Shown here one piece after another: positions 1 through 17,645 of a DNA stretch of 20,477 nt (positions are counted from its first letter, which is position 1; each line of letters opens with the position of its first letter). This DNA is from a virus (taxonomy: Duplodnaviria > Heunggongvirae > Uroviricota > Caudoviricetes): positions 1 to 20,477 of the IMG/VR virus record IMGVR_UViG_2703718852_000002, one strand, 5' to 3'. Under the pieces are notes generated by a model. That model was not told where the DNA came from. It did no database searches and saw only the letters and a list, made by a program, of their open reading frames with translations. The translations under genes and the position numbers were made by a program.

Positions 1-1053
1 TTACGGGGTAATGCCAACCGCTGCCGCCACTTTGTCGCCACTTGGCAGCGTTGCCAGAGGATTGAAACGGAGCGCCGTTTCCAGATGATCCGGTGCCAGA
101 TGTGCGTAACGCATAGTCATTTTTATATCGTGGTGTCCGAGAATTTTTTGTAAGGCCAGAATGTTTCCACCCGACATCATGAAGTGCGCCGCAAACGTAT
201 GGCGCAGAACGTGTGTGAGTTGACCGCGAGGGAGCACGATAGACGTTTTTTCCATCACGGATAAAAATTGAAAATAGCAGTCTGTGAAGAAATTGAACCC
301 ATCAAGCGCCATGATCTCTTCGTAAAGCTCTTTACTGATAGGGATGCTTCTGTTTTTCTTCCCCTTCGTTCTTACAAAGGTAATTCGGTATTTGGTCACC
401 TGTGAACGAGTAAGATTTACGGCTTCTCGCCAGCGTGCGCCTGTGCTTAAGCATATCTTAACTACCAGTGCCAGAATTGGGTCCTGACGTTTGCAATCAG
501 CCAGTAATTCAACAATCTGCTCATGGGTAAGCCATGCCATCTCTTTTTCTGCGATGGTGAATTTTCGCATGTTCTCCAGTGGGTTCGGATACGACCATTC
601 GCCCAGGCGGGATAGTTCGCTAAAAACACTACTTAGATAGCTTTGCTCCAGGTTAATGGTGACCGGGCTTGCTCCTTTCTTCCATTTCTCGCTGAAGTAG
701 ATCTCACCTGTCAGGCGTTTATCTCGATAGTGGGCAAACATTTTAGAGGTTAGATCAGTTGCAAGGGGATTGCCCAGAGCGTCAACCATCAGCAGCAATT
801 TGTCATAGACATGCTGCCCAGCAGTCAGTGATTTACCATGTAGTTTGAACCATAGCTCAACCACGTCTTTCAGTGTTCGACGATCCACTGATTCACCTAG
901 CCAGGGCTTTGCTTCGGTTTCTTCCATCGTGTGACGCTCAAAAGCCAGTGCTTCGCCTTTGGTGGCGAATTGTTTACGCACACGACGCCCACTACGTCCG
1001 GCGGGGTAACATTCGCAAAGCCATTTTCCTGTGGTGAGTTTTCGTACAGCCAT
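1..1053 (-). CDS. int: Tyrosine integrase, P2/186 family (350 aa)
   Basis: Starts MAVRKLTTGKWLCECYP at ATG 1053, with GGAGG 8 nt upstream on the minus strand. Carries tyrosine-recombinase motifs STGARWREA, HVLRHTFAAHF and GHHDIKMTMRYAHL. The track ORF extension to 1131 lacks an RBS. The stop codon is at 1-3. Confidence 0.9.
   Translation of the reverse strand: MAVRKLTTGKWLCECYPAGRSGRRVRKQFATKGEALAFERHTMEETEAKPWLGESVDRRTLKDVVELWFKLHGKSLTAGQHVYDKLLLMVDALGNPLATDLTSKMFAHYRDKRLTGEIYFSEKWKKGASPVTINLEQSYLSSVFSELSRLGEWSYPNPLENMRKFTIAEKEMAWLTHEQIVELLADCKRQDPILALVVKICLSTGARWREAVNLTRSQVTKYRITFVRTKGKKNRSIPISKELYEEIMALDGFNFFTDCYFQFLSVMEKTSIVLPRGQLTHVLRHTFAAHFMMSGGNILALQKILGHHDIKMTMRYAHLAPDHLETALRFNPLATLPSGDKVAAAVGITP
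19..41. repeat. Left copy of candidate att core (CGCTGCCGCCACTTTGTCGCCAC), inside the 3' end of int
   Basis: Matches 17623-17645 at 21 of 23 positions (C/T differences at repeat positions 12 and 23). Flanks on both sides are unrelated, as expected for attL/attR. Confidence 0.55.
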
Positions 1054-1241
1054 AAAAAATGCCCTCCAATAGAGAGCATTTTTACTGTATGTATAACCAG
1101 TGTCAATGTATGAAATCCTGCGACCATACATCTCACTGAAGCCATAATGAAGTAGGCTATTCTTTTTGCTATGTGATCATGTAACTTTTGCGGTTAACCT
1201 GTGGCTCATTTTTATTTTAGGCGCAGATATAAAAGCAAAAG

Positions 1242-1433
1242 TTATCGTGAGTTTTTAGTACAGATTTTTTTGGATTTACTAATAGTTCCATCATTGCAAA
1301 CGAATTTGCCATCAGAGGTACAGTGAGAAACACCTCCCTTTTTCCCTGAGCAGGGATAATTTCTAGCATAGGTAGCTAGTGGGTTTAATAACAAAGAACA
1401 TGACAAAACCACAAAAAATACCTTACCAAGCAT
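1242..1433 (-). CDS. Small secreted Cys-rich protein (63 aa), moron between cI and int
   Basis: Strong RBS (GGGAGGAAATT-ATG on the minus strand). Signal-peptide-like N-terminus [23 protein letters not shown], then a ~40-aa Lys/Gly-rich segment with 4 Cys. AT-rich. It starts 15 nt after the cI stop, on the same strand as cI and int. Confidence 0.6.
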
Positions 1434-1448
1434 AATTTCCTCCCGGTA

Positions 1449-2018
1449 CTATTTAACATACTTGACTGTTAAACTTATAATTTTACCAATTATTTCAATG
1501 TCTTCTATCTTACATTCAAAGGCTCTGTTTCCACCCTCGACGAAGATTCTTCCACCGGGTAAACGAGTAATGTCACGGATCGTTATTTCGCCATCAATAC
1601 TTATTACCCATTTACCATCACGTATATCATCAAATTCCTTATCACAAATAAATTCAGAATTATTATCTGTGATTACAAAAAGATTCTTGAATGCCGACGG
1701 TAGAAATTCTCTATCGAAAATATAAAAACCGTCTTCACACAAGGCCCCATCAGATAATACATATTTAGCAACTTCCATAGTATTTGTATTACCTGAAGTT
1801 TGCTTTGAACCATGCCCGGTTGTGAGCCAATTAAGCGAGGTGCCTGTTTCAAGGGCGCACTGGATTACCCATTCTGCTGGGAATGAGTCACGCATGTAGC
1901 GTGTGGCGAGTGTACTTTTAGAGATTCCTAAATGATCGCACAACGCCTGTCGAGTCTTGAATCCATAAGCTTCTACCATGCGCTCTATGGCGCCTCGTCC
2001 GCCTTTCTCCAAATTCAT
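1449..2018 (-). CDS. cI: CI-type immunity repressor, phage 186-like (189 aa)
   Basis: N-terminal HTH (RQALCDHLGISKSTLATRYMR) and a C-terminal oligomerisation-type domain. ATG 2018 is preceded by GGAG (the GTG at 2024 is less likely). Divergent/convergent arrangement with apl-cII as in 186. Confidence 0.85.
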   Translation of the reverse strand: MNLEKGGRGAIERMVEAYGFKTRQALCDHLGISKSTLATRYMRDSFPAEWVIQCALETGTSLNWLTTGHGSKQTSGNTNTMEVAKYVLSDGALCEDGFYIFDREFLPSAFKNLFVITDNNSEFICDKEFDDIRDGKWVISIDGEITIRDITRLPGGRIFVEGGNRAFECKIEDIEIIGKIISLTVKYVK

Positions 2019-2042
2019 GGTCACTCCAAGTGAACTTTTATC

Positions 2043-2071
2043 TTGACGATTTCACCGTGCGATCGTATGTT
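2043..2071 (+). promoter_or_regulatory. Lytic early promoter candidate (pR/Pe-like): TTGACG-17 nt-TATGTT
   Basis: -35 at 2043-2048, -10 at 2066-2071, 17-nt spacer, about 70 nt upstream of apl. GATCGTAT / GATCCGTAT motifs at 2061 and 2095 and GTGAAC/GTTCAC at 2031/2078 flank it and could be operators. Confidence 0.5.
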
Positions 2072-2143: not shown

Positions 2144-2365
2144 ATGAGACCTAACATTTCAATCACTCTTACCACGCCTCATGTGACTATTGAACGCTAT
2201 AGCGAGCTGACAGGGCTATCCATCGATACCATCAATGACATGTTGGCTGATGGACGCCTTATCCGTCACCGTCTGCGCAAAGATAAAAAACGCGAAAAAG
2301 TGATGATCAACATAGCAGCAATGACCGTTGATGCGCTTTCAGAATGCAATCTAAACCTTAATTAG
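2144..2365 (+). CDS. apl: Apl/Cox-type small HTH excisionase / switch regulator (73 aa)
   Basis: First gene of the rightward early operon, facing cI. The HTH-like segment [21 protein letters not shown] resembles the P2 Cox architecture. Confidence 0.7.
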
Positions 2366-2397: not shown

Positions 2398-2907
2398 ATG
2401 TTTGATTACCAAGTTTCCAAACATCCACATTTTGATGAAGCCTGTCGTGCATTTGCACTGCGCCACAATCTGGTGCAACTGGCAGAACGTGCAGGCATGA
2501 ATGTGCAGATTCTGCGGAACAAGCTGAACCCAGCTCAGCCTCATTTATTAACCGCACCAGAAATCTGGCTGCTTACCGATCTGACTGAAGATTCAACGCT
2601 GGTAGATGGTTTTCTGGCACAGATTCATTGTCTGCCATGTGTACCGATTAATGAGGTGGCAAAAGAGAAACTGCCACATTACGTCATGAGTGCAACCGCA
2701 GAGATCGGGCGTGTTGCTGCAGGTGCGGTGTCTGGCGATGTAAAAACCTGTGCCGGTCGTCGTGATGCTATCAGCAGCATTAACTCTGTAACACGACTGA
2801 TGGCGCTGGCGGCTGTTTCATTGCAGGCCCGTTTACAGGCTAATCCTGCGATGGCGAGTGCAGTTGATACCGTGACTGGCCTCGGTGCTTCATTTGGTTT
2901 GCTGTGA
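2398..2907 (+). CDS. cII: CII-like lysogeny-establishment activator, phage 186 type (169 aa)
   Basis: [24 protein letters not shown]...NKLNPAQPH...[25 protein letters not shown] closely matches my recollection of 186 CII, including the 169-aa length. AGAGG RBS before ATG 2398. Confidence 0.85.
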
Positions 2908-2914: not shown

Positions 2915-3115
2915 ATGCTGACGAAAGAACCATCATTTGCATCGCTGCTGGTTAAACAAAGCCCGGCAATGCATTACGGTCACGGCTGGATCATGGGGGA
3001 GGATGGTAAACGCTGGCATCCGTGCCGTTCACAAGATGAATTGCTGGCAGAACTATCTACGAAAAAACGGGGGAACAAATGGCTATTGAAGGCACTGCGG
3101 CGACTGTTCCATTAA
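2915..3115 (+). CDS. Small early-operon protein of unknown function (66 aa)
   Basis: ATG 2915 is preceded by GAGGTG, immediately after the cII stop. This is the position of the small fil/dhr-type genes of 186, but the sequence is not recognised with confidence. Confidence 0.5.
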   Translation: MLTKEPSFASLLVKQSPAMHYGHGWIMGEDGKRWHPCRSQDELLAELSTKKRGNKWLLKALRRLFH

Positions 3116-3420
3116 GCCCCGGTGAACGCCTGAATGGACTTAATCACATTGCGGAGTTAAGGGCGAAAGTTTTTGGCCTGAATATTGAGTCAGAGCTTGA
3201 GCGGTTTATTAAAGATATGCGTGATTCACGGGATATTAATAGCGAACAAAATAAACGGGCACTGGCTGCCATATTCTTTATGGCAAAAATTCCAGCTGAA
3301 CGTCATAGCATCAGCATTAATGAGCTGACCACTGACGAAAAGCGGGAGTTGATTAAAGCAATGAATCATTTTCGTGCAGTGGTGAGCTTATTTCCCAGAC
3401 GGCTAACCATGCCGAATTAA
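3079..3420 (+). CDS. Early-operon hypothetical protein (113 aa)
   Basis: ATG 3079 is preceded by GGGGGAA. It overlaps the previous ORF by 37 nt in another frame. No recognisable motif. Confidence 0.5.
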   Translation: MAIEGTAATVPLSPGERLNGLNHIAELRAKVFGLNIESELERFIKDMRDSRDINSEQNKRALAAIFFMAKIPAERHSISINELTTDEKRELIKAMNHFRAVVSLFPRRLTMPN

Positions 3421-3487
3421 CCAACTAATGAAATTAATGGCGTAAACCCGCCGGGCATCCCTTTATCTAAATTCAGGAGAATTGATT

Positions 3488-3721
3488 ATGCGTAATATTG
3501 AAACCCTCTCGACCAAAACCGGACCGGATGACGCAGGGCTTAATATTTTACTGACAGAGGCTCGTCTGGAAGAACGCCGGGCAAGGGCTGAAGCAATGGC
3601 AGCTCGCCTTGATAGCCTGGCGTGTCATATCACATCCCGCCAGCTAACCCACGTCGAAGCGGCAGAACTGCTTCGTGTGACTGCTGAAGCAATCCAGAAC
3701 GAAGCGCAGGAGATCCACTAA
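3488..3721 (+). CDS. Small helical early protein, DUF2732-like (77 aa)
   Basis: AGGAG lies 8 nt before ATG 3488. Sequence MRNIETL...LLTEARLEERRARAEAMAARLDSLA resembles the DUF2732 family common in P2-like early operons (from memory). Its stop overlaps the next start (TAATG). Confidence 0.55.
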   Translation: MRNIETLSTKTGPDDAGLNILLTEARLEERRARAEAMAARLDSLACHITSRQLTHVEAAELLRVTAEAIQNEAQEIH

Positions 3722-3948
3722 TGGCTGATGCAATGGATCTCGTACAGCAGCGCGTTGAAGAAGAACGCCAACGCCATATCCGTGCTGCCCGTGCCAAAAC
3801 GCCGGGCGTGTCCCGCGTGCTTTGCATTGAGTGTGAAGCGCCAATTCCGCCAGCACGCCGCCGTGCCATTCCGGGTGTGCAGCTTTGCATTACCTGTCAG
3901 GAAATCGCAGAGCTGAAAGGCAAACATTACAACGGAGGTGCTGTATGA
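3721..3948 (+). CDS. TraR/DksA-family C4 zinc-finger protein (75 aa)
   Basis: CIECEAPIPPARRRAIPGVQLCITCQ gives CxxC...CxxC. Typical P2-like early gene. Translationally coupled on both sides. Confidence 0.8.
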   Translation: MADAMDLVQQRVEEERQRHIRAARAKTPGVSRVLCIECEAPIPPARRRAIPGVQLCITCQEIAELKGKHYNGGAV

Positions 3949-4802
3949 GCACCATCCTGAAATGGGCGGGAAATAAAACTGCCATAATGTCCGAACTGAA
4001 AAAACATCTTCCTGCTGGCCCGCGACTGGTTGAACCTTTCGCGGGTTCCTGTGCTGTGATGATGGAGACGGATTATCCCAGCTATCTGGTTGCGGATATT
4101 AATCCTGATTTAATCAACCTCTATAAAAAGGTTGCCGCTGATTGTGAATCGTTTATATCTCGCGCCAGAGTTTTATTTGAGATCGCAAACAGGGAAGTGG
4201 CTTATTACAACATAAGGCAGGAGTTTAATTACTCAACTGAAATTACTGATTTCATGAAAGCGGTATATTTCCTGTATCTCAATCGTCACGGTTACCGTGG
4301 TTTATGTCGCTATAACAAGAGCGGGCATTTCAACATTCCCTACGGTAATTATAAAAATCCGTATTTCCCTGAAAAAGAAATTCGCGCATTTGCAGAAAAG
4401 GCCCAGCGAGCAACGTTTATCTGCGCCAGCTTTGATGAAACGCTGGCGATGTTGAAGGCGGGGGATGTGGTGTATTGCGATCCGCCGTATGACGGTACGT
4501 TTTCCGGCTATCACACTGACGGCTTCACTGAAGATGACCAGTATCACCTGGCATCTGTTCTTGAACATCGGTCATCAGAAGGACATCCGGTCATTGTTTC
4601 TAACAGTGACACATCCCTGATCCGTTCGCTGTATCGCAATTTTACTCACCACTACATCAAGGCAAAACGCAGCATCGGTGTGGCAGCTGGCGAGGGTAAA
4701 TCAGCAACAGAAATCATTGCTGTTTCCGGGCCGCGCTGCTGGGTGGGATTTGATTATTCGCGTGGCGTGGATAGTTCTGCCGTGTACGGAGTACGTGCAT
4801 GA
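3945..4802 (+). CDS. dam: DNA adenine methyltransferase, Dam/D12 class (285 aa)
   Basis: [20 protein letters not shown] (SAM-binding FxGxG) and YCDPPY catalytic motif. GGAGG before ATG 3945; ATGA overlaps with both neighbours. The track start at 3885 is an upstream extension. Confidence 0.9.
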
Positions 4803-7213
4803 GTCATGCCGATATGAACAACTGCTGCGGCTTTAACGAAGCTGCCGCATCGTTCTCATGGAACAGCTCGAAAAAGGCCATTAACCCTTATCTGGACCCG
4901 GTGGAAGTTGCGCCGGTTTCTACGCTTTCAAACCTGATCACTCTGTACGCTGCCGATAACGAGCAGGAACAGCTGCGCCGTGAGGCGCTGAGTGATCAGG
5001 TCTGGGAGCGTTATTTCTTTAATGAATCCCGTGATCCTGTCCAGCGCGAAATGGAACAGGATAAGCTCATTAGTCGGGCAAAGCTGGCGCATGAGCAGCA
5101 GCGTTTTAATCCGGATATGGTCATTCTGGCGGACGTCAACGCCCAGCCTTCCCATATCAGCAAGCCGCTGATGCAACGTATTGAATACTTCAGCAGCCTG
5201 GGCAGGCCAAAGGCTTATTCCCGCTATTTACGTGAGACGATTAAGCCATGTCTGGAACGACTGGAGCATGTACGCGACAGTCAGCTATCTGCATCTTTTC
5301 GCTTTATGGCAAGCCATGAAGGGCTGGACGGCCTGCTGATCCTGCCTGAAATGAGTCAGTTTCAGGTGAAACGCCTGTCCACCCTGGTAGCTGCGCATAT
5401 GAGTATGTGCCTTGATGCCGCTTGTGGCGATTTGTATGCCACCGATGACGTTAAGCCAGAAGAAATCCGCAATACATGGGAAAGGGTGGCAGCGGAAACC
5501 CTGCGTCTGGATGTCATCCCGCCTGCGTTTGAGCAACTCCGTCGGAAAAGAAACCGCCGTAAACCCGTGCCCTATGAACTCATTCCGGGTTCGCTGGCGC
5601 GTATGTTGTGCGCCGACTGGTGGTATCGGAAATTATGGAAGATGCGTTGCGAATGGCGGGAAGAGCAGTTGCGTGCTGTCTGCCTTGTCAGCAAAAAAGC
5701 ATCTCCCTATGTCAGCTATGAAGCCGTGTTGCATAAACGTGAGCAGCGCCGTAAGTCGCTGGAGTTTTTCCGTTCTCATGAACTGGTGAACGAAGACGGC
5801 GACACGCTGGACATGGAGGATGTGGTAAACGCCAGCAGCAGCAACCCTGCGCATCGCCGCAATGAGATGATGGCCTGTGTTAAAGGTCTGGAGCTTATCG
5901 CGGAAATGCGCGGTGACTGCGCCGTTTTCTACACCATCACCTGTCCGTCACGTTTCCATTCCACGCTAAATAACGGCAGGCCCAACCCGACCTGGACAAA
6001 TGCGACGGTAAGACAAAGCAGCGATTATCTGGTCGGTATGTTTGCTGCATTTCGTAAGGCGATGCACAAAGCCGGGTTGCGCTGGTATGGCGTGCGGGTG
6101 GCTGAGCCGCATCACGACGGCACAGTTCACTGGCACCTGTTGTGTTTCATGCGCAAAAAAGACCGCCGCGCCATTACAGCATTGTTGCGTAAGTTTGCTA
6201 TCCGTGAAGACCGCGAGGAGCTGGGCAATAACACGGGGCCGCGCTTTAAGTCTGAGCTGATTAACCCGCGCAAAGGAACGCCGACAAGCTACATAGCGAA
6301 ATACATCAGTAAGAACATTGACGGGCGTGGTCTGGCTGGCGAGATCAGCAAGGAAACGGGTAAATCTCTGCGTGATAACGCTGAATACGTGAATGCCTGG
6401 GCGTCTTTGCATCGTGTTCAGCAATTCCGCTTCTTTGGCATTCCGGGGCGTCAGGCTTACCGTGAACTGCGATTGCTGGCTGGTCAGGCGGCAAGGCAAA
6501 AGGGGGACAAAAAAGCAGGTGCGCCGGTACTGGATAACCCGCGCCTTGATGCCATCCTGGCTGCTGCTGATGCTGGTTGTTTTGCCACCTACATCATGAA
6601 GCAGGGCGGCGTACTGGTTCCCCGTAAATATCACCTCATCAGAACCGCTTATGAAATCAACGAAGAGCCGACCGCCTATGGCGATCACGGCATTCGTATT
6701 TATGGCATCTGGTCACCCATTGCAGAGGGCAAGATCTGCACTCATGCAGTGAAGTGGAAAATGGTTCGTAAAGCCGTTGACGTTCAGGAGGCGGCAGCCG
6801 ACCAGGGCGCTTGCGCCCCTTGGACTCGTGGCAATAACTGTCCCCTTGCTGAAAATTTGAACCAACAGGAGAAAGATAAATCAGCTGATGGGGACCCCAG
6901 AACGGACATTACCAGCATGGATGACAAGGAGTTGCACGATTACCTGCACAGTATGAGCAAAAAAGAGCGCCGGGAACTGGCAGCAAGGTTACGCCTGGTG
7001 AAACCGAAACGGCGTAAAGACTACAAACAGCGAATTACAGACCATCAGCGACTGCAGCTCGTGTATGAGCTGAAGTCCAGAGGATTTGATGGCAGCGAGA
7101 AAGAGGTCGATTTACTCCTTCGCGGAGGCAGTATTCCGTCAGGAGCAGGCCTGCGTATCTTCTATCGGAACCAGCGTTTGCAGGAAGATGATCAGTGGCG
7201 GAACCTGTATTAA
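4799..7213 (+). CDS. A: Replication initiation endonuclease gpA (rolling-circle Rep, 804 aa)
   Basis: HUH-type motif [10 protein letters not shown] and the two-tyrosine motif [10 protein letters not shown] typical of P2/186 A and phiX174-type initiators. Size and position match P2-family gene A. Confidence 0.9.
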
Positions 7214-7340: not shown

Positions 7341-7366
7341 TTGCGTGTGGTGTCATAGGAGGAAAG

Positions 7367-8667: not shown

Positions 8668-8670
8668 AAA

Positions 8671-10218: not shown

Positions 10219-10584
10219 GCTATATCGATTTTGACTCCAGCGGTAGAAAATATTATAAATGGTTCTAAATCTATCGAAATACGGTCGTGGTATCCTGAAA
10301 CGATACCATTAAAAAACGTCATTCTTGTTCAGAATGATAAATATCTTAAAAATCAAAGCGATATAGATCATGGGGTGGCTATGGCTATTGTCGATTTTGT
10401 TTCAGTTAGAAATTGGTCATATGAGGATTACTTAAAACAAAACCAAGAAACAACTCTTAATAAGCCTTGGTCTCCAGGTTATTATGTGTGGGAAATTAAA
10501 AATGTTAGAATTTTAAAAAAATCTATTCCTTGTGTGGCGAGGAAAGGTATTTATACAATAGATTTAAATATGGATTATATATAA
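10207..10584 (+). CDS. Cargo gene 5: ASCH-domain protein (125 aa)
   Basis: GAGGA RBS. MKFQAISILTPAVENIINGSKSIEIRSWYPETIPLKNVILVQ fits the common ASCH opening (AxSIxQPWAxxIxxGxKxIEIRSW...). Confidence 0.7.
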   Translation: MKFQAISILTPAVENIINGSKSIEIRSWYPETIPLKNVILVQNDKYLKNQSDIDHGVAMAIVDFVSVRNWSYEDYLKQNQETTLNKPWSPGYYVWEIKNVRILKKSIPCVARKGIYTIDLNMDYI

Positions 10585-10595
10585 GGTATTGTGAG

Positions 10596-11387
10596 ATGTG
10601 TGGTGCCATTCTTCGAAATATTAAGCGTTATGCCATTATTTATTCACTGTTGTTTTTGGCTTTTATTTTAATGCTGATAGTGTTTGTTAGCTATGTTTGT
10701 AAATTTGGAGTGTATTCATGGAGTGATTCCGTAGAGAAATGGGGACAGTTTGGCGATTATATTGGTGGTGTACTGAATCCTGCTCTGGCCTTTATCTCTA
10801 TCATGCTTGTTTGTTTCACACTATATTCTACATCTAGGCAGTCATCTATTCAGTCATTCGAGTCTGTGTTATTTGAGTTACTAAGATTTCATAAAGATAA
10901 CTTATCAGAAATTAAAACAACGTATTCAGATGGAAAAGTGTATGTAGGACGGGAGGCTCTTTCATTATACATTACCGAAGTGAAGTTTAACCTACTTAAT
11001 ATTGTGGATGATTCACTTCCTTTGGATGAAAGGTTAGAGCTTTCAGTTAATATGGTTTATCTGGAAGGTGACAATTTTGCGAATGTGGGACATTATTTCA
11101 GGAATATTTACCATATTTTTAAACATATCAATGACTCTAACTATTTGACTGAGAAAGAAAAAACCAAGTATGCGAAATTAGTTAGAGCACAAATATCTTC
11201 TATAGAATCTGGCGCGATGCTATTAAATGGTTTTTCATCGGTAGGAAAGCCTGCCAAGAAATTTATTGAAAAATATTCTCTCCTTCAGGGGTTTAGTTTA
11301 AGTAAGGAATTCAAGCAGCAATTACATGATTTAGGTGCCTTAAAATTATACGATGACGTTGCTTATGAGGATAAAAAAGGGCATTAA
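10596..11387 (+). CDS. Cargo gene 6: two-TM membrane protein, AbiC-like putative abortive-infection effector (263 aa)
   Basis: Starts 11 nt after gene 5. Two N-terminal hydrophobic helices (AIIYSLLFLAFILMLIVFVSYV and VLNPALAFISIMLVCFTLY) flank WGQFGDYIGGVLNP, the signature I associate with the Pfam 'putative phage abortive infection protein' (putAbiC) family. The C-terminal region is soluble and helical. Confidence 0.6.
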   Translation: MCGAILRNIKRYAIIYSLLFLAFILMLIVFVSYVCKFGVYSWSDSVEKWGQFGDYIGGVLNPALAFISIMLVCFTLYSTSRQSSIQSFESVLFELLRFHKDNLSEIKTTYSDGKVYVGREALSLYITEVKFNLLNIVDDSLPLDERLELSVNMVYLEGDNFANVGHYFRNIYHIFKHINDSNYLTEKEKTKYAKLVRAQISSIESGAMLLNGFSSVGKPAKKFIEKYSLLQGFSLSKEFKQQLHDLGALKLYDDVAYEDKKGH

Positions 11388-11394
11388 ATGCCCT
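11378..11394. terminator. Bidirectional hairpin AGGGCAT-TAA-ATGCCCT at the cargo/portal boundary
   Basis: Perfect 7-bp stem. On the minus strand it is followed by TTTTTTA, so it serves as a Q terminator. The stop codons of gene 6 (11385-11387) and Q (11384-11386, minus strand) both sit in or beside the loop. Confidence 0.55.
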
Positions 11395-12220
11395 TATCTT
11401 GGTCAAGGATGTAGTCATTAAATGACACAATATTTTGATTTATCCAGGTGTTTAGCTCAACTAGTCTTTTCTGCAAAGGAACCAACTCATTTCTGACAAA
11501 AACCTTCGCGGCTTTTTCCACATCCCCAAACCCTCCAACATTATTAGGCATAATCCCCATCATTTGCGGCGGCACGCGGTGCGCAGCCATCATGTCATCA
11601 CGGCTCACGTTCTTGATATTCAGAAACTCATCCTTCGCCGCAACTTCTGACAATGGGATAATCTGAAGCCCGTCCTTTTTGCCGTTAGGCGAGTACATAA
11701 ACAGGTTGCGGAAGTTGCCCGGACCTTTGGCGCTTTTCATCGCATTGCGGAGGTTGTTCACATCTTCCTGGTTCTGCGCGGCATCGGTCATGTACATGAT
11801 GAAGCCTGCATGACTGCCGTTAATGTAATACTTCCGGCGGAACAGCGTGGCGGACTCGTTGAGCAGGGCTGACGGAATGGCAGAAAGATAACCTGGCAGG
11901 CCGTAGATCTCCTGGTTGATGTCCGGTTCCATCAGATGAAAAATGCTGCCTTTCGTGAACTGATACGGCTGGGTTGTCATACCGTATTGCACAAACCAGT
12001 AGGTATCCAGGTCTAACCCGCGTCGGGTATATTTTGCCAGAGCAGGCTCAAGGGCGATAACTTCACCGAAGCGGTTCGTGCGTTTCTCCAGGTAGGCGTT
12101 ACCAAATACCAGATAGTCCTGCACAAAACGTGAAAAAGCCTGCTGGCTGAGCAGCGGGTGAGGGATGTAGGTACTGGTCAGAATGTTGCATTTTACTGCA
12201 ATCGGTGACCGGAAGCAGAG
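11384..12220 (-). pseudogene. Q: Portal protein gpQ, 5'-truncated (C-terminal ~275 codons retained)
   Basis: SPIAVKCNILTSTYIPHPLLSQQAFSRF...LNESATLFRRKYYINGSHAGFIMY...VFVRNELVPLQ matches P2 gpQ from about residue 70 onward. Upstream of ~12210 the minus-strand frame reads antisense to the J remnant (track ORF to 12337). Confidence 0.85.
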
Positions 12221-12439
12221 CCGGTAATGGCAGCGGCAAAAGCCAGTCTGCAGAAGTACATTGCCAGCCAGACGAGGCTTGGTCGGGATATTCGCCGTAG
12301 CGCCATCTTTGCTGCTCTGCATGTTGAGGGTGTTCAACGTGTGGAACTGGCTTCTCCGCTGGCGGATGTGGTCCTGAACAAAACACAGGCGGCATCATGT
12401 ACGCAGTGGAGCGTAACCAACGGAGGAACGGATGAATAG
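12209..12439 (+). pseudogene. J: Baseplate protein gpJ, 3' remnant (~75 codons)
   Basis: ...RLGRDIRRSAIFAALHVEGVQRVELASPLADVVL...GGTDE is a P2 gpJ C-terminus. An in-frame stop at 12206-12208 lies just upstream. The remnant is immediately followed by, and overlaps, gene I as in P2. Confidence 0.75.
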
Positions 12440-13037
12440 TCTGCTGCCACCGGGTTCAACTTCACTGGAGCGCCGACTGGCGCAAACCTGTAGCGGGATT
12501 TCTGATTTGCAGGTGCCGCTGCGTGACTTGTGGAATCCGGCTACCTGTCCGGTCAGCTTCCTGCCTTATCTCGCCTGGGCGTTCTCTGTGGATCGCTGGG
12601 ACGAGGGCTGGACAGAAAGCGTCAAACGCCAGGTAGTGAAGGATGCTTTTTATATTCATCAGCATAAAGGAACCACCAGTGCCGTGCGGCGGGTGGTGGA
12701 ACCGTTCGGATTCCTGATCCGCATTATTGAGTGGTGGCAGACCGGAGAAACACCGGGCACGTTTCGCCTGGATATCGGCGTGCAGGACCAGGGCATCACT
12801 GAAGATACCTATCTGGAACTTGAGCGACTGATAAGCGATGCCAAACCATGTAGCCGCCACATGATCGGCATGTCCATCAATCTGCAGACCAGCGGCCCGC
12901 ATTGGGTGGGAGCCGCCAGCTATCTTGGCGAAGAAATCACGATCTATCCGTATATCAACGAAACGATTATTTCCGGTGGCACCGCGCATGAAGGCGGGGC
13001 GGTCCATGTTATTGACACAATGAGAGTGAATCCATGA
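12432..13037 (+). CDS. I: Baseplate/tail protein gpI (201 aa)
   Basis: GGAGGA RBS. MNSLLPPGSTSLERRLAQ...FLPYLAWAFSVDRWDEGW is typical of P2 gpI. Coupled to H (ATGA). Confidence 0.85.
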   Translation: MNSLLPPGSTSLERRLAQTCSGISDLQVPLRDLWNPATCPVSFLPYLAWAFSVDRWDEGWTESVKRQVVKDAFYIHQHKGTTSAVRRVVEPFGFLIRIIEWWQTGETPGTFRLDIGVQDQGITEDTYLELERLISDAKPCSRHMIGMSINLQTSGPHWVGAASYLGEEITIYPYINETIISGGTAHEGGAVHVIDTMRVNP

Positions 13038-14977
13038 GCACAAAATTTTATACCCTGCTGACGGATATTGGCGCGGCGAAACTTGCCAGCGCCGCCGCGC
13101 TCGGTGTGCCGCTAAAAATTACCCATATGGCGGTGGGCGATGGCGGTGGAGTATTGCCAACGCCGGACGCAAAGCAGACGGCACTGGTAAATGAGAAACG
13201 CCGGGCTGCGCTGAATATGCTTTATATCGACCCGCAGAACAGCAGCCAGATTATTGCCGAACAGGTGATCCCTGAAAACGAGGGCGGTTGGTGGATACGT
13301 GAAGTGGGCTTGTTTGATGAGTCCGGGGCATTGATTGCCGTGGGCAACTGCCCGGAAAGCTATAAGCCGCAACTGGCTGAAGGTAGCGGGCGCACTCAGA
13401 CCGTGCGCATGGTGCTGATTACCAGCAGCACGGACAATATCACCCTGAAAATCGACCCTGCTGTAGTGCTGGCAACCCGCAAGTATGTGGATGACAAGGC
13501 ACTGGAGCTGAAGGTGTACGCGGATGATCAGATGGCAAAACATCTTGCCGCACCGGACCCGCATTCACAGTACGCGCCAAAAGCCAGCCCGACATTTACC
13601 GGAACCCCCAAAGCGCCAACGCCAGCGGCGGGGAATAATACCACGCAGGTTGCGACCACTGCGTTTGTACAGGCGGCACTGACGGCCCTTATTAATGGTG
13701 CGCCAGCCACGCTGGACACGCTGAAAGAAATAGCCGCAGCCATTAACAATGATCCGAATTTCAGTACCACCATTAACAATGCGCTGGCACTAAAAGCACC
13801 GTTGTCGAGTCCGGCACTCACCGGAACGCCAACAGCCCCCACGGCGGCGCAGTCGGTCAACAATACACAGATTGCCACTACGGCTTTTGTGAAATCGGCG
13901 ATTGCAGGAATGGTGGGTTCTGCACCTGCTGCACTGGATACACTGAACGAACTGGCGGCGGCACTGGGGAATGATCCGAACTTTGCCACGACAATGCTTA
14001 ATGCGCTGGCAGGTAAACAACCGCTGGACAATACGCTTACCAATTTGAGTGGAAAGGATGTGGCTGGTCTTCTCGCATACCTTCAATTGGGAGAAGCGGC
14101 AAAACGGGATGTCGGAACCGGTAATAATCAACTCCCGGACATGTCCGCATTTGGTATGTCGCGAAACGGACAAACTGCCTGGGATATTCTCCCAAATGGT
14201 ATGATTCGACAGGCTGGCACTGTGACACTGACACCAGTTGGTAACTTCAACGAAATTGTTCTTGGTGGAGTGACGTACTACACCCATTACTACAGGGTTA
14301 ATTTCCCCAGACAATTCCCAAATGCACAAATAGCAACGCTGGCAACACTAGCGAGCTCAGAGTTTTCGAAACAGACAACAATGGCCGGAAAATCACTGGC
14401 AACGCATCGCGATACTGATTCTGGCACTGACGTATCAAGAACGCGATTCACTGTGGCGTACGGCAGCAGTAACTCGAACCAGCAGCGCGTTGTCCTGGCT
14501 GGCTGGCGCACCACTGGCACTGCTGCGACGCGGGCTTGCTTCATCGGGCAACGCCGCAGGTTTACTTACTGCGCCGTTGTCGTCTTTGCGCCGCACGGCA
14601 TCACTGACGGGAAATGTCCTGAAAACTGTAGCAGGTGCGCCGGTTGCACTTTTGCGGTCTGGATTATCCGGTTTACGTGCTGTTGCTGTGATGTTTATGA
14701 ATCCTCTGGCGGTACTGCGCGGTGGACTGGCCGCCGCAGGCACGGTGCTGCGAGTACTGGCATCTGGTCCACTGGCGATGCTGCGCGTTGCCCTGTATGC
14801 CATATCTGGTCTGTTAGGTGCTCTGCTCAGTCCGATAGGTCTTGTGGTTACTGCACTGGCGGGCGTGGCGCTGGTTGTCTGGAAATACTGGCAACCCATC
14901 ACCGCATTTCTCGGTGGCGTGGTGGAAGGATTCAAAGCGGCGGCAGGTCCCATCAGTGCAGCGTTCGAACCGCTTAA
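13034..14977 (+). pseudogene. H: Tail fibre gpH, 3'-truncated and fused out of frame into the tape-measure gene
   Basis: P2 H-like N-terminus MSTKFYTLLTDIGAAKLASAAALGVPLKITHMAVGDGGG. Fibre-like sequence runs to ~14488 (...TVAYGSSNSNQQ). After that the frame gives a Cys/Arg/Gly-rich nonsense tail across T DNA until the stop at 14977. Confidence 0.8.
13631..14025 (+). repeat. Tandem ~75-aa repeat inside the tail fibre
   Basis: NNTTQVATTAFVQAALTALINGAPATLDTLKEIAAAINNDPNFSTTINNALALKAP is repeated as VNNTQIATTAFVKSAIAGMVGSAPAALDTLNELAAALGNDPNFATTMLNALAGKQP. This is a common phage fibre repeat. Confidence 0.8.
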
Positions 14978-15734
14978 GCCCGTGTTCCAGTGGATTGGCG
15001 ACAAAGTGCAGGCGCTGTGGGGCTGGTTTACTGATCTGCTGACGCCCGTTAAGTCGACCTCTGCCGAACTGCAGAGCGCAGCGGCAATGGGGCGGCGATT
15101 CGGGGAGGCACTGGCGGAAGGGCTGAATATGGTCATGCATCCGCTGGACTCCCTGAAATCCGGCGTTTCCTGGTTGCTGGAGAAGCTCGGCATTGTCAGT
15201 AAAGAGGCCGCAAAGGCAAAACTGCCGGAAAGCGTGACGCGTCAGCAACCTGCGACGGTGAATGCAGACGGTAAAGTGATGATGCCATCGGGTGGTTTTC
15301 CATCATGGGGATATGGCTTTGCGGGGATGTATGACAGCGGCGGGTATATCCCGCGCGGGCAGTTTGGCATCGTCGGTGAAAACGGGCCGGAAATTGTTAA
15401 CGGCCCGGCAAATGTGACCAGCCGGAGAAATACAGCTGCACTGGCTGCCGTTGTTGCCGGAATGATGGGCGTTGCTGCCGCGCCAGCAGAGCTTCCACCG
15501 TTGCACCCTTTGGCACTTCCCGCGAAAGGTGGAGAAGCAATTGTGAGTCGCGCAGCCACTGTGCCGCTCGTTCAACGGATTGAGGCACCGACGCAGATCA
15601 TCATTCAGACGCAGCCAGGACAAAGTGCGCAGGATATTGCGCGGGAGGTGGCACGCCAGCTTGATGAACGTGAACGCAGGCTGAAGGCAAAAGCCAGGAG
15701 TAACTACAGCGATCAGGGGGGATACGACGCATGA
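14490..15734 (+). pseudogene. T: Tape-measure protein gpT, 5'-truncated (C-terminal ~414 codons)
   Basis: Ala/Gly/Leu-rich periodic PLALLRRGL / PVALLRSGL / PLAVLRGGL units, then ...GGYIPRGQFGIVGENGPEIV..., typical of P2 gpT. There is no credible start (TTG only). Followed by U with an ATGA overlap. Confidence 0.8.
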
Positions 15735-16216
15735 TGATGGTGCTGGGATTGTACGTGTTTATGCTGCGCACCGTTCCGTATCAGGAACTGCAGTATCAAC
15801 GCAGCTGGCGACATGCGGCAAACAGTCGGGTAAACCGACGTCCGTCCACGCAGTTTCTGGGACCGGAAAACGACATGCTGACGCTTTCCGGTGTTCTTAT
15901 GCCGGAAATAACAGGCGGCAGGCTGTCGTTGCTGGCACTGGAGCAGATGGCAGAACAGGGGAAAGCATGGCCCCTGATTGAAGGCAGCGGCACGATTTAC
16001 GGCATGTATGTGATTGAGGGACTGAATCAGACTAAAACGGAGTTTTTCCGCGACGGTATGCCGCGCCGGATTGAGTTCACCCTGTCGCTCAAACGAGTGG
16101 ATGAATCCCTGTCCGATATGTTCGGTGATCTCAGTGCGCAACTGAATAATCTGCAGGACACGGCAACGTCTGCCTTAAGCGATATCAGTAAAACGGTGGG
16201 AGGGCTGCTGTCGTGA
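15731..16216 (+). CDS. U: Tail protein gpU (161 aa)
   Basis: MMMVLGLYVFMLRTVPYQELQYQRSWRHAANSRV...GKAWPLIEGSGTIYGMYVIE closely parallels P2 gpU. Confidence 0.9.
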   Translation: MMMVLGLYVFMLRTVPYQELQYQRSWRHAANSRVNRRPSTQFLGPENDMLTLSGVLMPEITGGRLSLLALEQMAEQGKAWPLIEGSGTIYGMYVIEGLNQTKTEFFRDGMPRRIEFTLSLKRVDESLSDMFGDLSAQLNNLQDTATSALSDISKTVGGLLS

Positions 16217-17313
16217 ATTTCAGCTCTGAACTGCTTAACAAAGGCAACAAAACTCCCGCATTCAGCATCAGTATTGAGGGCAGGGATATCACCACTGTGC
16301 TGGATAACCGCCTGATGAGTTTGACGCTGACGGATAACCGGGGCTTTGAAGCGGACCAGCTTGATCTGGAGCTGGATGACGCTGACGGAAAAATCGTGCT
16401 GCCGCGCCGTGGTGCGGTTATTACGCTGGCGCTGGGCTGGAAGGGGCAGCCGCTTTTCCCGAAAGGGGCATTCACAGTGGACGAGATTGAACACACTGGC
16501 GCACCGGACCGCCTGACTATCCGGGCGCGAAGTGCTGATTTTCGGGAAACGCTGAATACCCGCCGTGAAAAATCGTGGCATAAGACCACCGTCGGGGAAG
16601 TGGTGAAGGAAATAGCCGCGCGGCACAAGCTGAAGATGGCACTGGGTAAAGACCTGTCGGATAAGCCCGTGGAGCATATAGACCAGACTAATGAGAGTGA
16701 CGGCAGTTTTCTGATGCGGCTGGCGCGACAGTACGGTGCCATCGCGTCGGTGAAAAATGGCAATCTGTTATTCATCCGGCAGGGGCAGGGCAAAAGCGCC
16801 ACTGGTAAACCTCTGCCAGTGATCACTATCACACGCAAGGACGGCGACAGTCACCGATTTACCCTGGCAGATCGCGGAGCCTACACGGGCGTAATTGCCA
16901 GCTGGTTGCATACCCGCGAACCTGCGAAGAAAGAAAGCACCACGGTGAAGCGTAAGCGCAGAACTAAGAAGCAGAAGAAAGAGCCAGAAGCGAAGCAGGG
17001 CGATTACCTGGTGGGTACGGATGAAAACGTGCTGGTACTTAATCGCACTTATGCCAACCGGAGCAACGCCGAACGAGCGGCGAAAATGCAGTGGGAACGC
17101 CTGCAACGCGGCGTTGCGTCATTTTCGCTACAACTGGCAGAAGGGCGGGCAGATCTCTACACGGAAATGCCTGTGAAGGTCAGTGGTTTTAAACAGCCGA
17201 TAGATGATGCGGAATGGACCATTACGACTCTGACACATACTGTCAGCCCGGATAATGGTTTTACGACCAGTCTGGAGCTTGAAGTGAGGATTGATGATTT
17301 CGAAATGGAATGA
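16213..17313 (+). CDS. D: Tail/late-control protein gpD (366 aa)
   Basis: ...LTLTDNRGFEADQLDLELDDADG...RARSADFRETLNTRREKSWH...VKVSGFKQPIDDAEWTITTLTH parallels P2 gpD. GTG start overlaps the U stop. Confidence 0.9.
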   Translation: MNFSSELLNKGNKTPAFSISIEGRDITTVLDNRLMSLTLTDNRGFEADQLDLELDDADGKIVLPRRGAVITLALGWKGQPLFPKGAFTVDEIEHTGAPDRLTIRARSADFRETLNTRREKSWHKTTVGEVVKEIAARHKLKMALGKDLSDKPVEHIDQTNESDGSFLMRLARQYGAIASVKNGNLLFIRQGQGKSATGKPLPVITITRKDGDSHRFTLADRGAYTGVIASWLHTREPAKKESTTVKRKRRTKKQKKEPEAKQGDYLVGTDENVLVLNRTYANRSNAERAAKMQWERLQRGVASFSLQLAEGRADLYTEMPVKVSGFKQPIDDAEWTITTLTHTVSPDNGFTTSLELEVRIDDFEME

Positions 17314-17338
17314 TTCTTCGCAATGGAGAACTTTTAAG

Positions 17339-17366
17339 TTTGCAAAATGGAATAATGCGGTATCAT
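17339..17366 (+). promoter_or_regulatory. ogr promoter candidate TTTGCA-16 nt-TATCAT
   Basis: Hexamers at 17339-17344 and 17361-17366, about 40 nt upstream of the ogr ATG. Confidence 0.4.
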
Positions 17367-17403
17367 TATTGTGAATTTAGCAAAAATGGGGAGAGCTCGA
17401 AAA

Positions 17404-17622
17404 ATGATGATTTGCCCACTGTGTGGAAGTGCCGCCCATACTCGCAGCAGTTTTCAGGTATCTTCATTGACCAAAGAGCGTTACAACCAGTGCCAGAACA
17501 TTAACTGCAGCCATACTTTTGTTACCCATGAAACTTTTGTTCGTTCGATTGCAACGCCAAAAGAGTCAAATCCGGTTCAGCCGCATCCAATGAAATCAGG
17601 ACAGGTGGCGCTCTCTCTTTGA
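17404..17622 (+). CDS. ogr: Ogr/B-type zinc-finger late-gene activator (72 aa)
   Basis: MMICPLCGSAAHTRSS...KERYNQCQNINCSHTF matches the Ogr/Delta/186-B CxxC...CxxxxC pattern and the 72-aa length. The track ORF start at 17371 is an extension. Confidence 0.9.
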   Translation: MMICPLCGSAAHTRSSFQVSSLTKERYNQCQNINCSHTFVTHETFVRSIATPKESNPVQPHPMKSGQVALSL

Positions 17623-17645
17623 CGCTGCCGCCATTTTGTCGCCAT
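17623..17645. repeat. Right copy of candidate att core (CGCTGCCGCCATTTTGTCGCCAT), immediately after the ogr stop
   Basis: 21 of 23 identical to 19-41. In P2-like phages attP lies between ogr and int, so this position is expected. Confidence 0.55.

What the first reader, a model, noticed from the sequence alone, without database searches (positions are those of the whole stretch)
19..17645. The remnant keeps a complete mobility and replication kit (int, apl, cI/cII, A, cos, ogr) but no capsid, lysis or sheath/tube genes, so its organisation is satellite-like
Every gene needed for repression, SOS response, excision, rolling-circle replication and cos recognition looks intact. All virion-building operons, and the regions that hold the four P2-type late promoters, are gone. 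Such an element cannot form particles alone. In principle, a co-resident or superinfecting P2/186-like helper with compatible terminase could excise, replicate and package it. Its ~17.6 kb length is close to half of a P2-sized (~33 kb) chromosome, so a cos-to-cos dimer would fit a helper capsid. That would make the defence island horizontally mobile. Alternatively this is simple decay, with the cargo retained by selection.
Basis: inference. Interest (0 to 1): 0.55.

Follow-up and report, generated by a model that had tools for sequence, protein, structure and literature searches.

The report
Recently decayed 186/P2-like prophage remnant
This is a 186/P2-like prophage sitting in the rybB small-RNA gene that lost its head, lysis and most tail genes through two recent internal deletions; it is an ordinary decaying prophage confined to one tight E. 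coli clone, not an evolved phage satellite.

Summary
The gene inventory is right. int, cI, an Apl/Cox-like gene, cII, gpA, a 186-type cos, a LexA-boxed DinI-like operon and ogr are all present. Their proteins are 98.5-100% identical to those of an intact 34.5-kb prophage at the same site in E. coli MLI104K1. Capsid, terminase, lysis, sheath and tube genes and all late-promoter regions are missing.

The boundaries are wrong. Positions 19 and 17645 are arm-type Int-site repeats. The real att core is the 3' end of rybB: attR is at 17687-17713, and attL lies about 100 bp left of the window.

One third of the element is still virion-gene debris (portal', J', I, H', T', U, D), left by two 2-bp-microhomology deletions.

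Neither junction occurs in 5,426 complete E. coli genomes, IMG/VR, JGI metagenomes or GTDB representatives. The few dozen assemblies that carry the junctions have the element at the same locus. The two compared are 100% identical to the window. Sublineages have lost A, cos and cargo through further deletions.

No satellite hallmark genes are present. The best explanation is recent clonal decay; helper mobilisation is possible in principle but has no support.

In passing: at least three independent deletions in related prophages end at the same nucleotide of gene J.

The parts
4..1053 (-). Integrase, 350 aa, intact. The window starts at its stop codon.
   Evidence: 100% identical to WP_000290937.1 of the intact prophage. 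Pfam Int_N + Phage_integrase.
19..40 (.). It is a pair of arm-type Int-site-like motifs (TGCCGCCACTT, TGTCGCCACTT) inside the int 3' end.
   Evidence: Repeat D12, 95% identical to 17623-17644. The 186 record gives the arm-type consensus YAYCGCCAYTY. The empty K-12 site shows the crossover is elsewhere.
1085..1100 (.). LexA-box-like sequence CTGTATGTATAACCAG between orf63 and int.
   Evidence: One mismatch to CTGT-N8-ACAG. 21-nt inverted repeat with 7320-7340. Function not tested.
1245..1433 (-). orf63, small conserved prophage ORF (phrog_6000 / YdcA-like), function unknown.
1452..2018 (-). CI repressor, 189 aa, intact. 33% identical to 186 CI, which implies a different immunity (inference).
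   Evidence: Pfam Phage_CI_repr + Phage_CI_C. 100% identical to the intact relative. 33% to 186 CI.
2144..2365 (+). Apl/Cox-like excisionase-repressor, 73-aa allele.
   Evidence: phrog_575 'Cox-like excisionase and repressor', E 6e-31. The same 73-aa allele occurs in E94.
2398..2907 (+). CII, 169 aa, intact.
   Evidence: Pfam Phage_CP76. 100% identical.
2915..4802 (+). Early-operon accessory genes: fil, DUF5347, DUF2732, TraR/DksA zinc finger and Dam methylase, all intact.
4799..7213 (+). gpA rolling-circle replication endonuclease, 804 aa, intact. The region homologous to the 186 ori lies at about 6803-6840 (GGGCGCTTGCGCCCCTTGGACTCGTGGCAATAAC).
   Evidence: Pfam Phage_GPA, E 3e-127. 98.5% to the intact relative over the full length. 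ori placed by protein-guided alignment to the annotated 186 ori.
7308..7799 (+). SOS module: perfect LexA-box core CTGTAAATATAAACAG (7308-7323), orf62 (7367-7555) and a DinI-like gene (7566-7799), in the position of 186 tum.
   Evidence: Pfam DinI. 41% to the C-terminal half of 186 Tum. orf62 has no similarity to the Tum N-terminal half.
7938..8032 (+). cos region. The 19-nt cohesive-end homologue GGCGTGGCGGGGATACGAG lies at 8004-8022.
   Evidence: Aligns to the circularised 186 cos junction; 14/19 identical to the 186 cohesive end. Window 7800-8029 is 100% identical to Escherichia phage vB_EcoM-813R9. Conservation across P2-like phages stops at about 8030-8050.
8197..11387 (.). Cargo between cos and portal: PDC-M11A (as two ORFs) and PDC-M11B/ASCH, an AAA-kinase-like gene (-), a second ASCH-like gene and an AbiC-like gene. 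GC about 33%.
   Evidence: PADLOC and Pfam hits. GC profile. The same cargo sits beside a portal gene in 8 of 5,426 genomes.
11387..12208 (-). Portal (gpQ) remnant, residues 74-347; the N-terminal 73 codons are deleted.
12207..12210 (.). Deletion junction 1 (portal | J), 2-bp 'GA' microhomology. Removes about 10.4 kb: portal 5' end, terminase, scaffold, capsid, small terminase, head completion, X, lysis genes, R, S, V, W and most of J.
12209..12439 (+). J remnant (last 76 codons; called as a 70-aa ORF from 12227).
12432..13037 (+). Tail protein I, intact but orphaned.
   Evidence: 99.5% identical. Pfam Tail_P2_I.
13034..14977 (+). H' tail-fibre gene lacking about 19 C-terminal codons. It runs out of frame into T, giving a 647-aa fusion ORF. 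An orphan invertase crossover site (TTCTCGCATACC TT CAATTGGGAGAA) lies at about 14069-14094.
14459..14460 (.). Deletion junction 2 (H | T), 2-bp 'TA' microhomology. Removes the H 3' end, G, the invertible segment and invertase, sheath, tube, E/E' and the first 601 codons of T.
14460..15734 (+). Tape-measure (T) remnant, residues 602-1025.
15731..17313 (+). gpU and gpD, intact but with no late promoter upstream.
17404..17622 (+). Ogr/B late-gene activator, 72 aa, intact.
   Evidence: Pfam Ogr_Delta. 100% identical.
17623..17644 (.). Right copy of the 22-nt arm-type repeat.
17687..17713 (.). attR. The core AACAAAAAACCCAT is shared with attL and with the empty K-12 site.
17700..17778 (-). rybB sRNA gene, full length. 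Its 3' end is restored by the phage att sequence.
   Evidence: Rfam RF00110, 105 bits, model positions 1-79 of 79. K-12 annotation.

Best explanation
The window holds a defective prophage of the P2/186 family (Peduoviridae). It is integrated by its tyrosine integrase into the 3' end of the rybB sRNA gene, between rcdA and ybjL. Its parent was a prophage of about 34.5 kb of the type still intact in E. coli MLI104K1, carrying the same defence cargo between cos and the portal gene.

Two internal illegitimate-recombination deletions, each with 2-bp microhomology, produced the remnant. One (portal|J) removed about 10.4 kb. The other (H|T) removed about 6.4 kb, estimated from the MLI104K1 length. 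Together they took out the head, packaging, lysis, baseplate, sheath and tube genes and every late promoter. A remnant of about 17.8 kb is left.

The early half (int, cI, apl, cII, A, SOS operon, cos, cargo) and ogr survived because the deletions missed them, not because they form an organised satellite genome. The events are recent and the form is clonal. In sister sublineages further deletions have already removed A, cos and the cargo.

What the remnant most likely does now is inferred, not shown. It probably expresses CI, giving immunity to homoimmune phages, and the cargo genes. On SOS induction it may still attempt excision and replication, but it cannot make particles or lyse the cell.
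For: 1. Collinearity. Window 1-12208, 12189-14145 and 14459-20477 match three separated blocks of the intact MLI104K1 prophage at 99.4%, 95.5% and 97.8%.
2. All early proteins are full length and 98.5-100% identical.
3. Both junctions fall inside ORFs with 2-bp microhomology and no IS or scar. They leave four truncated genes and three promoterless intact ones.
4. Rarity. 0 of 5,426 complete E. coli genomes have either junction contiguous. Neither junction is in IMG/VR, and junction 2 is not in the GTDB species representatives; the only junction-1 motif hits in JGI metagenomes are chance 19-mers.
5. The exact H'-fusion protein is on 31 contigs and the portal remnant on 35. All 24 contigs read per look-up are at the same locus.
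6. The two window-type loci compared (GCA_002467335.1 and SRR3971772) are 100.000% identical to the window over 18-19 kb, including 2.8 kb of chromosome.
7. Onward decay. L006 keeps both junctions but has a third deletion (cII|portal') that removes A, cos and cargo. L016 keeps both junctions but adds dam|portal' and T'|D deletions.
8. Other remnants of the same family at rybB have quite different gene losses. E94/E92 keep heads and lysis but lose tails. L010, L011 and L013 differ again.
9. Defective P2-like prophages at rybB and defective P2-likes with conserved defence genes are already described (PMC3032704, PMC13586616).
Against: - The retained set (int, apl, cI, A with ori, cos, ogr) is exactly what helper-dependent transfer would need, and a dimer (35.6 kb) is 103% of the parental length. 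Incidental mobilisation is therefore not excluded.
- Identical element sequences cannot by themselves separate clonal descent from very recent transfer. The chromosomal flank available (2.8-4.7 kb) is too conserved in E. coli to prove clonality; it differs by only 1 SNP from unrelated carriers.
- Only 24 of 45-52 index blocks were read.
Confidence: 0.85

Rival explanations
1. Proto-satellite ('proto-hitcher'). After SOS induction the remnant excises (Int + Apl), replicates (A at ori) and expresses Ogr. Ogr trans-activates the late genes of a co-resident or superinfecting heteroimmune P2/186-like helper. The helper's terminase recognises the remnant's cos and packages it, probably as a circular dimer, which spreads the defence cargo.
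For: - All cis and trans functions needed look intact.
- The cos-flanking block 7881-8032 is about 94% conserved in many Klebsiella and Salmonella P2-like phages, so terminase compatibility is plausible.
- A dimer is 35,574 bp, 103% of the 34,536-bp parent.
- P4 sid mutants are packaged as 2-3 copies in P2-size heads (PMC6893505, PMC4936722).
- Defective prophages have been proposed as proto-hitchers (PMC11389934).
Against: - There is no sign of spread. The form occurs at one locus only, the two loci compared are identical to the window, and it is absent from 5,426 complete genomes and from the viral and metagenome collections.
- Sublineages have lost A, cos and cargo.
- One third of the element is useless truncated virion DNA.
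- There is no capsid-size, helper-derepression or interference gene.
- Multi-copy packaging in cos phages is inefficient (PMC6893505).
- A homoimmune helper would be repressed by the resident CI, the bottleneck noted in PMC11389934.
- Few J-bearing complete genomes carry a second copy of this J region: 1,059 places in 1,033 records.
- The cargo is already mobile on intact phages.
Confidence: 0.08
2. Domesticated remnant. The deletions were selected because they remove the lethal lysis and virion functions. The rest is kept by selection for CI immunity and the PDC-M11/AbiC-like defence cargo, with no role for mobility.
For: - Cargo proteins are 99.4-100% identical to those on intact prophages.
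- Lysis genes are lost in the window type and in most related remnants.
- Defective P2-like elements with conserved defence genes have been reported (PMC13586616).
Against: - The events are so recent (0 SNPs among carriers) that conservation says nothing about selection.
- The L006 and L016 sublineages lost the cargo.
- E94/E92 keep the lysis genes.
- PDC-M11A is split into two ORFs in both the remnant and the intact relative.
Confidence: 0.25
3. Assembly artefact: the junctions are mis-joins in one draft assembly.
For: Neither junction is present in any complete RefSeq E. coli genome.
Against: The same junctions and fusion ORFs recur in independent NCBI, ENA and Logan assemblies, including a 4.89-Mb contig.
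Confidence: 0.01

Closest known systems
Defective P2-like prophages at the rybB locus of E. coli W, B and Crooks (Rybb*W, Rybb*B, Rybb*Cr; PMC3032704)
   Same: Same integration site (rybB ncRNA), same phage family, and a defective state with variable cargo (retron Ec86 in B).
   Different: Different deletion pattern and different cargo. The window's two junctions are absent from those complete genomes.
Coliphage 186 (NC_001317)
   Same: - Same gene order: int-cI / apl-cII-fil ... A, then a LexA-controlled DinI-like operon, cos, portal ... D and B/ogr.
- Homologous cos; 14 of 19 cohesive-end bases are identical.
- Arm-type Int-site motif.
- ori inside A.
   Different: - CI is only 33% identical.
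- A is 804 aa against 694 aa.
- It integrates in rybB, not ileY.
- The tum homologue is split, and its N-terminal part is unrelated.
- Cargo lies between cos and portal.
- About 16.7 kb of late genes are deleted.
Satellite phage P4 and P4-like elements (PMC8628076)
   Same: An integrase, a P2-family cos, and an Ogr/Delta-type zinc-finger activator able in principle to switch on helper late genes. It carries defence cargo next to cos.
   Different: - No psu, sid, alpha primase-helicase, epsilon or alpA.
- It replicates with a phage gpA.
- 17.8 kb against about 11 kb.
- It contains truncated helper-type virion genes.
- It is not dispersed across lineages or sites.
Defective P2-like prophages with conserved defence genes (PMC13586616) and 'proto-hitcher' defective prophages (PMC11389934)
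   Same: An incomplete P2-like element whose defence genes are almost identical to those on intact phages. It is a candidate for mobilisation in trans.
   Different: Here replication gene A is intact, whereas that survey found the P2 primase more often pseudogenised than the other core genes. No evidence of mobilisation.
P4 sid mutants and SaPIbov5-type cos elements packaged as multimers in full-size heads (PMC6893505, PMC4936722)
   Different: Those are real satellites with demonstrated helper exploitation. Multi-copy packaging is reported as inefficient.

Membership tests
Defective (cryptic) P2/186-like prophage | Collinear, near-identical homology to an intact prophage of the family at the same chromosomal site | tested here: met
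   Three blocks at 95.5-99.4% to the 34.5-kb MLI104K1 prophage between rcdA and ybjL.
Defective (cryptic) P2/186-like prophage | Bounded by att core repeats made by integrase-mediated insertion | tested here: inconclusive
   attR (17687-17713) and full-length rybB are present. attL lies outside the window. It is seen in the intact relative and in same-lineage contig L006.
Defective (cryptic) P2/186-like prophage | Loss or truncation of genes essential for particle formation | tested here: met
   Terminase, scaffold, capsid, lysis, V, W, sheath and tube genes are absent. Portal, J, H and T are truncated.
P4-like satellite | Core gene set: int, psu, delta, sid, alpha (primase-helicase), alpA, epsilon | tested here: not met
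   Only int and an Ogr/Delta zinc finger are found. Every other ORF is a P2/186 orthologue or cargo.
P4-like satellite | cos site of the helper's type | tested here: met
   186-type cos at 7938-8032.
P4-like satellite | Dispersal across host lineages and chromosomal sites, indicating horizontal transfer (PMC8628076) | tested here: not met
   One locus only, and the two loci compared are identical to the window. 0 of 5,426 complete genomes; absent from IMG/VR, JGI metagenomes and GTDB representatives.
PICI / cf-PICI | int + alpA + pri-rep module, plus packaging-redirection or own capsid genes | tested here: not met
   No such Pfam or PHROG assignments among the called genes.
Phage satellite in the functional sense | Helper-dependent excision, replication, packaging and transfer | not testable with these tools
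   Needs induction or superinfection and transduction experiments.
186-type SOS-inducible switch | LexA-repressed promoter driving a Tum antirepressor | tested here: inconclusive
   Perfect CTGT-N8-ACAG box at 7308-7323. The DinI-like ORF is 41% identical to the Tum C-terminal half. orf62 shows no similarity to the Tum N-terminal half.

The most novel reading that the evidence does not exclude
Head-less, lysis-less derivatives of this prophage family might not be random decay products. They could be generated repeatedly by a site-specific break at one nucleotide of gene J. The window-type derivative, which keeps int, apl, A/ori, cos and ogr, would then be a nascent helper-dependent element (proto-satellite). 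After SOS induction it would switch on the late genes of a heteroimmune P2-like helper through Ogr and be packaged as a dimer, moving its defence cargo.
Probability: 0.05. Interest if true: 0.6.

Novelty: new member of a known kind. Interest (0 to 1): 0.2.

Why it matters
As it stands this matters little. It is one more defective P2-like prophage at a known integration site, and its defence cargo is already carried by intact phages.

It is useful as a dated snapshot of prophage decay. The intact parent, the two-deletion form in the window and two further-decayed sublineages can all be lined up at nucleotide resolution. Together they show that the 'mobility kit' is not preserved.

If helper mobilisation were demonstrated, it would give a rare example of a satellite caught at birth from its own helper family. 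It would also test the immunity bottleneck proposed for proto-hitchers.

The recurrent breakpoint in gene J is the only unexpected observation, and it deserves its own follow-up.

Tried and rejected
- The P2 cohesive-end sequence recalled from memory gave no hit with up to 3 mismatches. cos was found with a looser pattern and by alignment to the annotated 186 ends.
- The 186 ori sequence is not conserved at DNA level. The homologous region was placed by protein-guided alignment.
- I asked whether the recurrent J breakpoint is a quasi-site of the phage's Cin/Gin-type invertase. The natural crossover sites (L001 24954-24980 and 26934-26960) have a TT centre and an AAACC-type inner half-site. The J site shares only TTCTC and has a GA centre. 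Quasi-site by quasi-site recombination seems unlikely, so this is rejected as weak.
- I asked whether the J site mimics the gpA nick site. The resemblance to the ori region is only about 4 nt, and the paper that maps the P2 nick (PMC332061) is not held. Left untested.
- The metagenome scan for the junction motif returned only chance 19-mers in unrelated DNA.
- The chromosomal flank comparison could not resolve lineage because the region is nearly invariant in E. coli.
- Loci L005 and L006 were not exposed to the Python sandbox. L008, L016 and L017 were used instead.
- No paper held gave the P2 packaging-substrate statement. That P2 terminase prefers closed circular monomers rests on my own knowledge (Pruss and Calendar 1978; Bowden and Modrich 1985), plus a general remark in PMC6893505.

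Full report
**What is in the window.**
- The window matches P2/186-like (Peduoviridae) prophages of E. coli, Klebsiella and Salmonella.
- In E. coli it always lies between rcdA and ybjL.
- The best relative is a complete prophage in strain MLI104K1 (NZ_CP116923; locus L001). It is 34,536 bp between its att repeats and has a full P2-type gene set.
- Window 1-12208 equals L001 501-12707 (99.4%). Window 12189-14145 equals L001 23074-25029 (95.5%). Window 14459-20477 equals L001 31708-37726 (97.8%).
- The window therefore holds that prophage minus two internal segments, followed by ybjL, ybjM and grxA. This flank is identical to K-12 over the region compared.

**Check of the inventory.**
- Proteins of the intact relative were run by tblastn against the window. 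int, orf63, cI, the apl-like gene, cII, fil, DUF5347, DUF2732, TraR/DksA, dam, A, orf62, the DinI-like gene, all six cargo genes, I, U, D and ogr are full length at 98.5-100% identity.
- Family assignments agree: Int_N/Phage_integrase, Phage_CI_repr + CI_C, phrog_575 'Cox-like excisionase and repressor', Phage_CP76, Phage_GPA, DinI and Ogr_Delta.
- A perfect LexA-box core (CTGTAAATATAAACAG, 7308-7323) precedes orf62 and the DinI-like gene. This is the position of the LexA-controlled tum operon of 186.
- The DinI-like protein is 41% identical to the C-terminal half of Tum. orf62 has no detectable similarity to the N-terminal half. SOS control is therefore supported, but antirepressor activity is only inferred.
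- cos is not next to the portal gene. It lies in the 400-bp gap after the DinI-like gene. Window 7938-8029 aligns with the circularised ends of 186, and GGCGTGGCGGGGATACGAG (8004-8022) corresponds to the 186 cohesive end GGCGTGGCGGGGAAAGCAT.
- Window 7800-8029 is 100% identical to a deposited phage genome. Conservation across P2-like phages stops at about 8030-8050, where the low-GC cargo begins. This is the known defence hotspot between gpA and the portal gene, near cos (PMC13586616).
- The region homologous to the 186 ori lies inside A at about 6803-6840.

**What is missing and what is left.**
- Junction 1 (12208/12209) joins portal codon 74 (minus strand) to J codon 227 through a shared GA.
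- Junction 2 (14459/14460) joins H, about 19 codons before its stop, to T codon 602 through a shared TA. H reads on out of frame, giving a 647-aa ORF.
- Neither junction has an IS, a scar or a long repeat.
- The deletions remove terminase, scaffold, capsid, small terminase, head completion, X, holin, lysozyme, spanins, R, S, V, W, G, the invertible segment and its invertase, sheath, tube and E/E'.
- They also remove the three intergenic regions that hold the late promoters in the intact relative.
- 'All virion-building operons are gone' is not right. Positions 11387-17310 (5.9 kb, one third of the element) are portal', J', I, H', T', U and D: four truncated genes and three intact genes without a promoter.

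**Boundaries.**
Each copy holds two motifs of the type TG(C/T)CGCCA(C/T)TT. These fit the arm-type Int-site consensus annotated for 186, YAYCGCCAYTY. The left copy is inside the int coding sequence.
- Comparison with the empty K-12 site shows the crossover is in AACAAAAAACCCAT, the terminator end of the sRNA gene rybB.
- attR is at 17687-17713. rybB is full length at 17700-17778 on the minus strand (Rfam, 105 bits).
- attL lies 74-100 bp to the left of window position 1. It is seen in L001 and in the same-lineage contig L006.
- The element is therefore about 17,787 bp. A dimer would be 35,574 bp, which is 103% of the parental 34,536 bp and 116% of the 186 genome.
- rybB is a published integration site for P2-like prophages, including defective ones in E. 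coli W, B and Crooks (PMC3032704).

- Junction-spanning queries found both halves in more than 1,200 complete E. coli genomes. Neither junction was contiguous in any of 5,426 genomes.
- Exact junction motifs are absent from IMG/VR. In JGI metagenomes only chance 19-mers matched. They are also absent from the GTDB species representatives.
- Exact-protein look-ups show the form exists elsewhere. The H' fusion is on 31 contigs, the portal remnant on 35 and T' on 67.
- All 24 contigs read for the portal remnant share one context.
- Of the 24 contigs read for the fusion protein, 22 share that context and 2 are a further-deleted variant.
- A contig from SRR3971772 and one from GCA_002467335.1 are 100.000% identical to the window over 19,094 and 18,251 bp, chromosomal flank included.
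- The architecture is thus rare, always at rybB and without sequence divergence. A single recent clone would look like this.
- The flank is too conserved to prove clonality on its own. It differs by one SNP from unrelated carriers.

**Decay continues in the same lineage.**
- L006 (SRR21939982) keeps junctions 1 and 2 but has a third deletion from mid-cII into the portal remnant. It removes A, cos and the cargo.
- L016 (GCA_005396145.1) keeps both junctions and differs from the window by 2 SNPs. It has added a dam|portal' deletion and a T'|D deletion.
- Other remnants of the same family at rybB have lost different sets. E94/E92 have the same cargo and early region but a single deletion from V to T, so they keep heads and lysis genes. 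L010, L011 and L013 have yet other combinations.
- There is no convergence on an 'int-A-cos-ogr' architecture.
- The cargo occurs in 8 of 5,426 complete genomes, always beside a portal gene. In MLI104K1, 31B19CPO012 and KD602 the prophage span is full length. Its mobility therefore does not need a satellite route.

**Comparison with satellites.**
- P4-like elements are defined by int, psu, delta, sid, alpha, alpA and epsilon. They show almost no homology to phages and are dispersed over lineages and sites (PMC8628076). The window has only int, an Ogr/Delta finger and a cos. Everything else is P2/186-orthologous or cargo.
- No PICI-type module is present.
- The multimer idea has precedent. P4 sid mutants put two or three genomes into P2-size heads, but inefficiently, and cos packaging constrains size (PMC6893505, PMC4936722).
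- Defective prophages have been discussed as 'proto-hitchers'. The stated bottleneck is that their own immunity and exclusion hinder co-residence with a closely related helper (PMC11389934). That applies here, because cI is intact.
- Few J-bearing complete genomes carry a second copy of this J region: 1,059 places in 1,033 records.
- Defective P2-like elements whose defence genes stay nearly identical to those on intact phages have already been reported (PMC13586616).

**Verdict.** Incidental helper-dependent packaging remains physically possible and can only be settled at the bench.

**Side observation.**
- The 70-aa J' ORF led to remnants with four different left partners: portal in the window lineage, scaffold gene O at two different positions, and the start of A in a prophage at another site.
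- All four join to exactly the same nucleotide of J (...GA|CCGGAAGCAGAGCC; L001 23092/23093).
- The right-hand haplotypes differ by 68-89 substitutions per 1.7 kb between three of the types, and the differences start within 40 nt of the junction. These are therefore at least three independent events.
- The look-up could only detect breakpoints within about 48 nt upstream of the ORF start. Coincidence at a single nucleotide is very unlikely by chance.
- The site is a small palindrome (TCCGG GA CCGGA). The left partners share a loose ATC-GG-GA motif, which suggests a hotspot of short-homology illegitimate recombination.
- An invertase quasi-site looks unlikely, and a gpA pseudo-nick site could not be tested.
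- Such truncations are rare among complete genomes: 8 of 1,033 J-bearing records are truncated somewhere within the 400-nt query around the site.

Noticed in passing
window 12207-12212; L001 23091-23093; L010, L011, L012, L013 and L016 at 9975-9990; L018 10019-10037: Recurrent deletion breakpoint in baseplate gene J. Four different left partners (portal, scaffold O at two positions, start of A) are joined to the identical nucleotide ...GA|CCGGAAGCAGAGCC. The events are in at least three independent phage haplotypes (68-89 differences per 1.7 kb). The site is a small palindrome, TCCGG-GA-CCGGA, and the mechanism is unknown.
   Followed up: partly
L006 8820-9200; L016 9515-9990 and 12233-12600: Sublineages that share both of the window's junctions carry further deletions: cII|portal' in L006, and dam|portal' plus T'|D in L016. 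These remove A, cos and the cargo. Together with the intact parent they form a stepwise decay series.
   Followed up: yes
The true att core is the 3' end of the sRNA gene rybB, which stays full length at attR. attL lies outside the window.
   Followed up: yes
window 8197-11387: The cargo matches the candidate defence system PDC-M11. Its A component is split into two adjacent ORFs (156 + 193 aa against a 357-position profile), in the intact relative too. It also holds two ASCH-type genes, an AAA-kinase-like gene and an AbiC-like gene. The block occurs in only 8 of 5,426 complete E. coli genomes.
   Followed up: partly
window 1083-1103 and 7320-7340: A 21-nt LexA-box-like sequence upstream of int is a 95% inverted copy of a second box beside the perfect LexA box of the orf62/DinI operon. 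This hints at SOS control of int transcription.
   Followed up: no
window 14069-14094: An orphan Cin/Gin-type inversion crossover site (TTCTCGCATACC TT CAATTGGGAGAA) survives in the truncated H gene, although the invertible segment and the invertase gene are deleted.
   Followed up: partly
window 11375-11400: The AbiC-like gene and the convergent portal gene overlap by their stop codons inside a hairpin (AAGGGCATTAAATGCCCTT), probably a bidirectional terminator. cos is therefore not next to the portal gene as in P2 and 186, but 3.4 kb upstream.
   Followed up: no
L026 (E. coli E94, NZ_CP119740) 21190-21750: Strains E94 and E92 carry the same prophage type and cargo with a different single deletion (upstream of V to the last 140 codons of T). 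They keep head and lysis genes but have no baseplate, fibre, sheath or tube genes.
   Followed up: partly
L007, L009, L014, L015: Several apparently complete P2-like prophages in long-read assemblies have most late genes split into fragments. One example is a T5 to T4 change 15 nt upstream of the J hotspot in L015. These are probably homopolymer sequencing errors rather than real pseudogenes.
   Followed up: no
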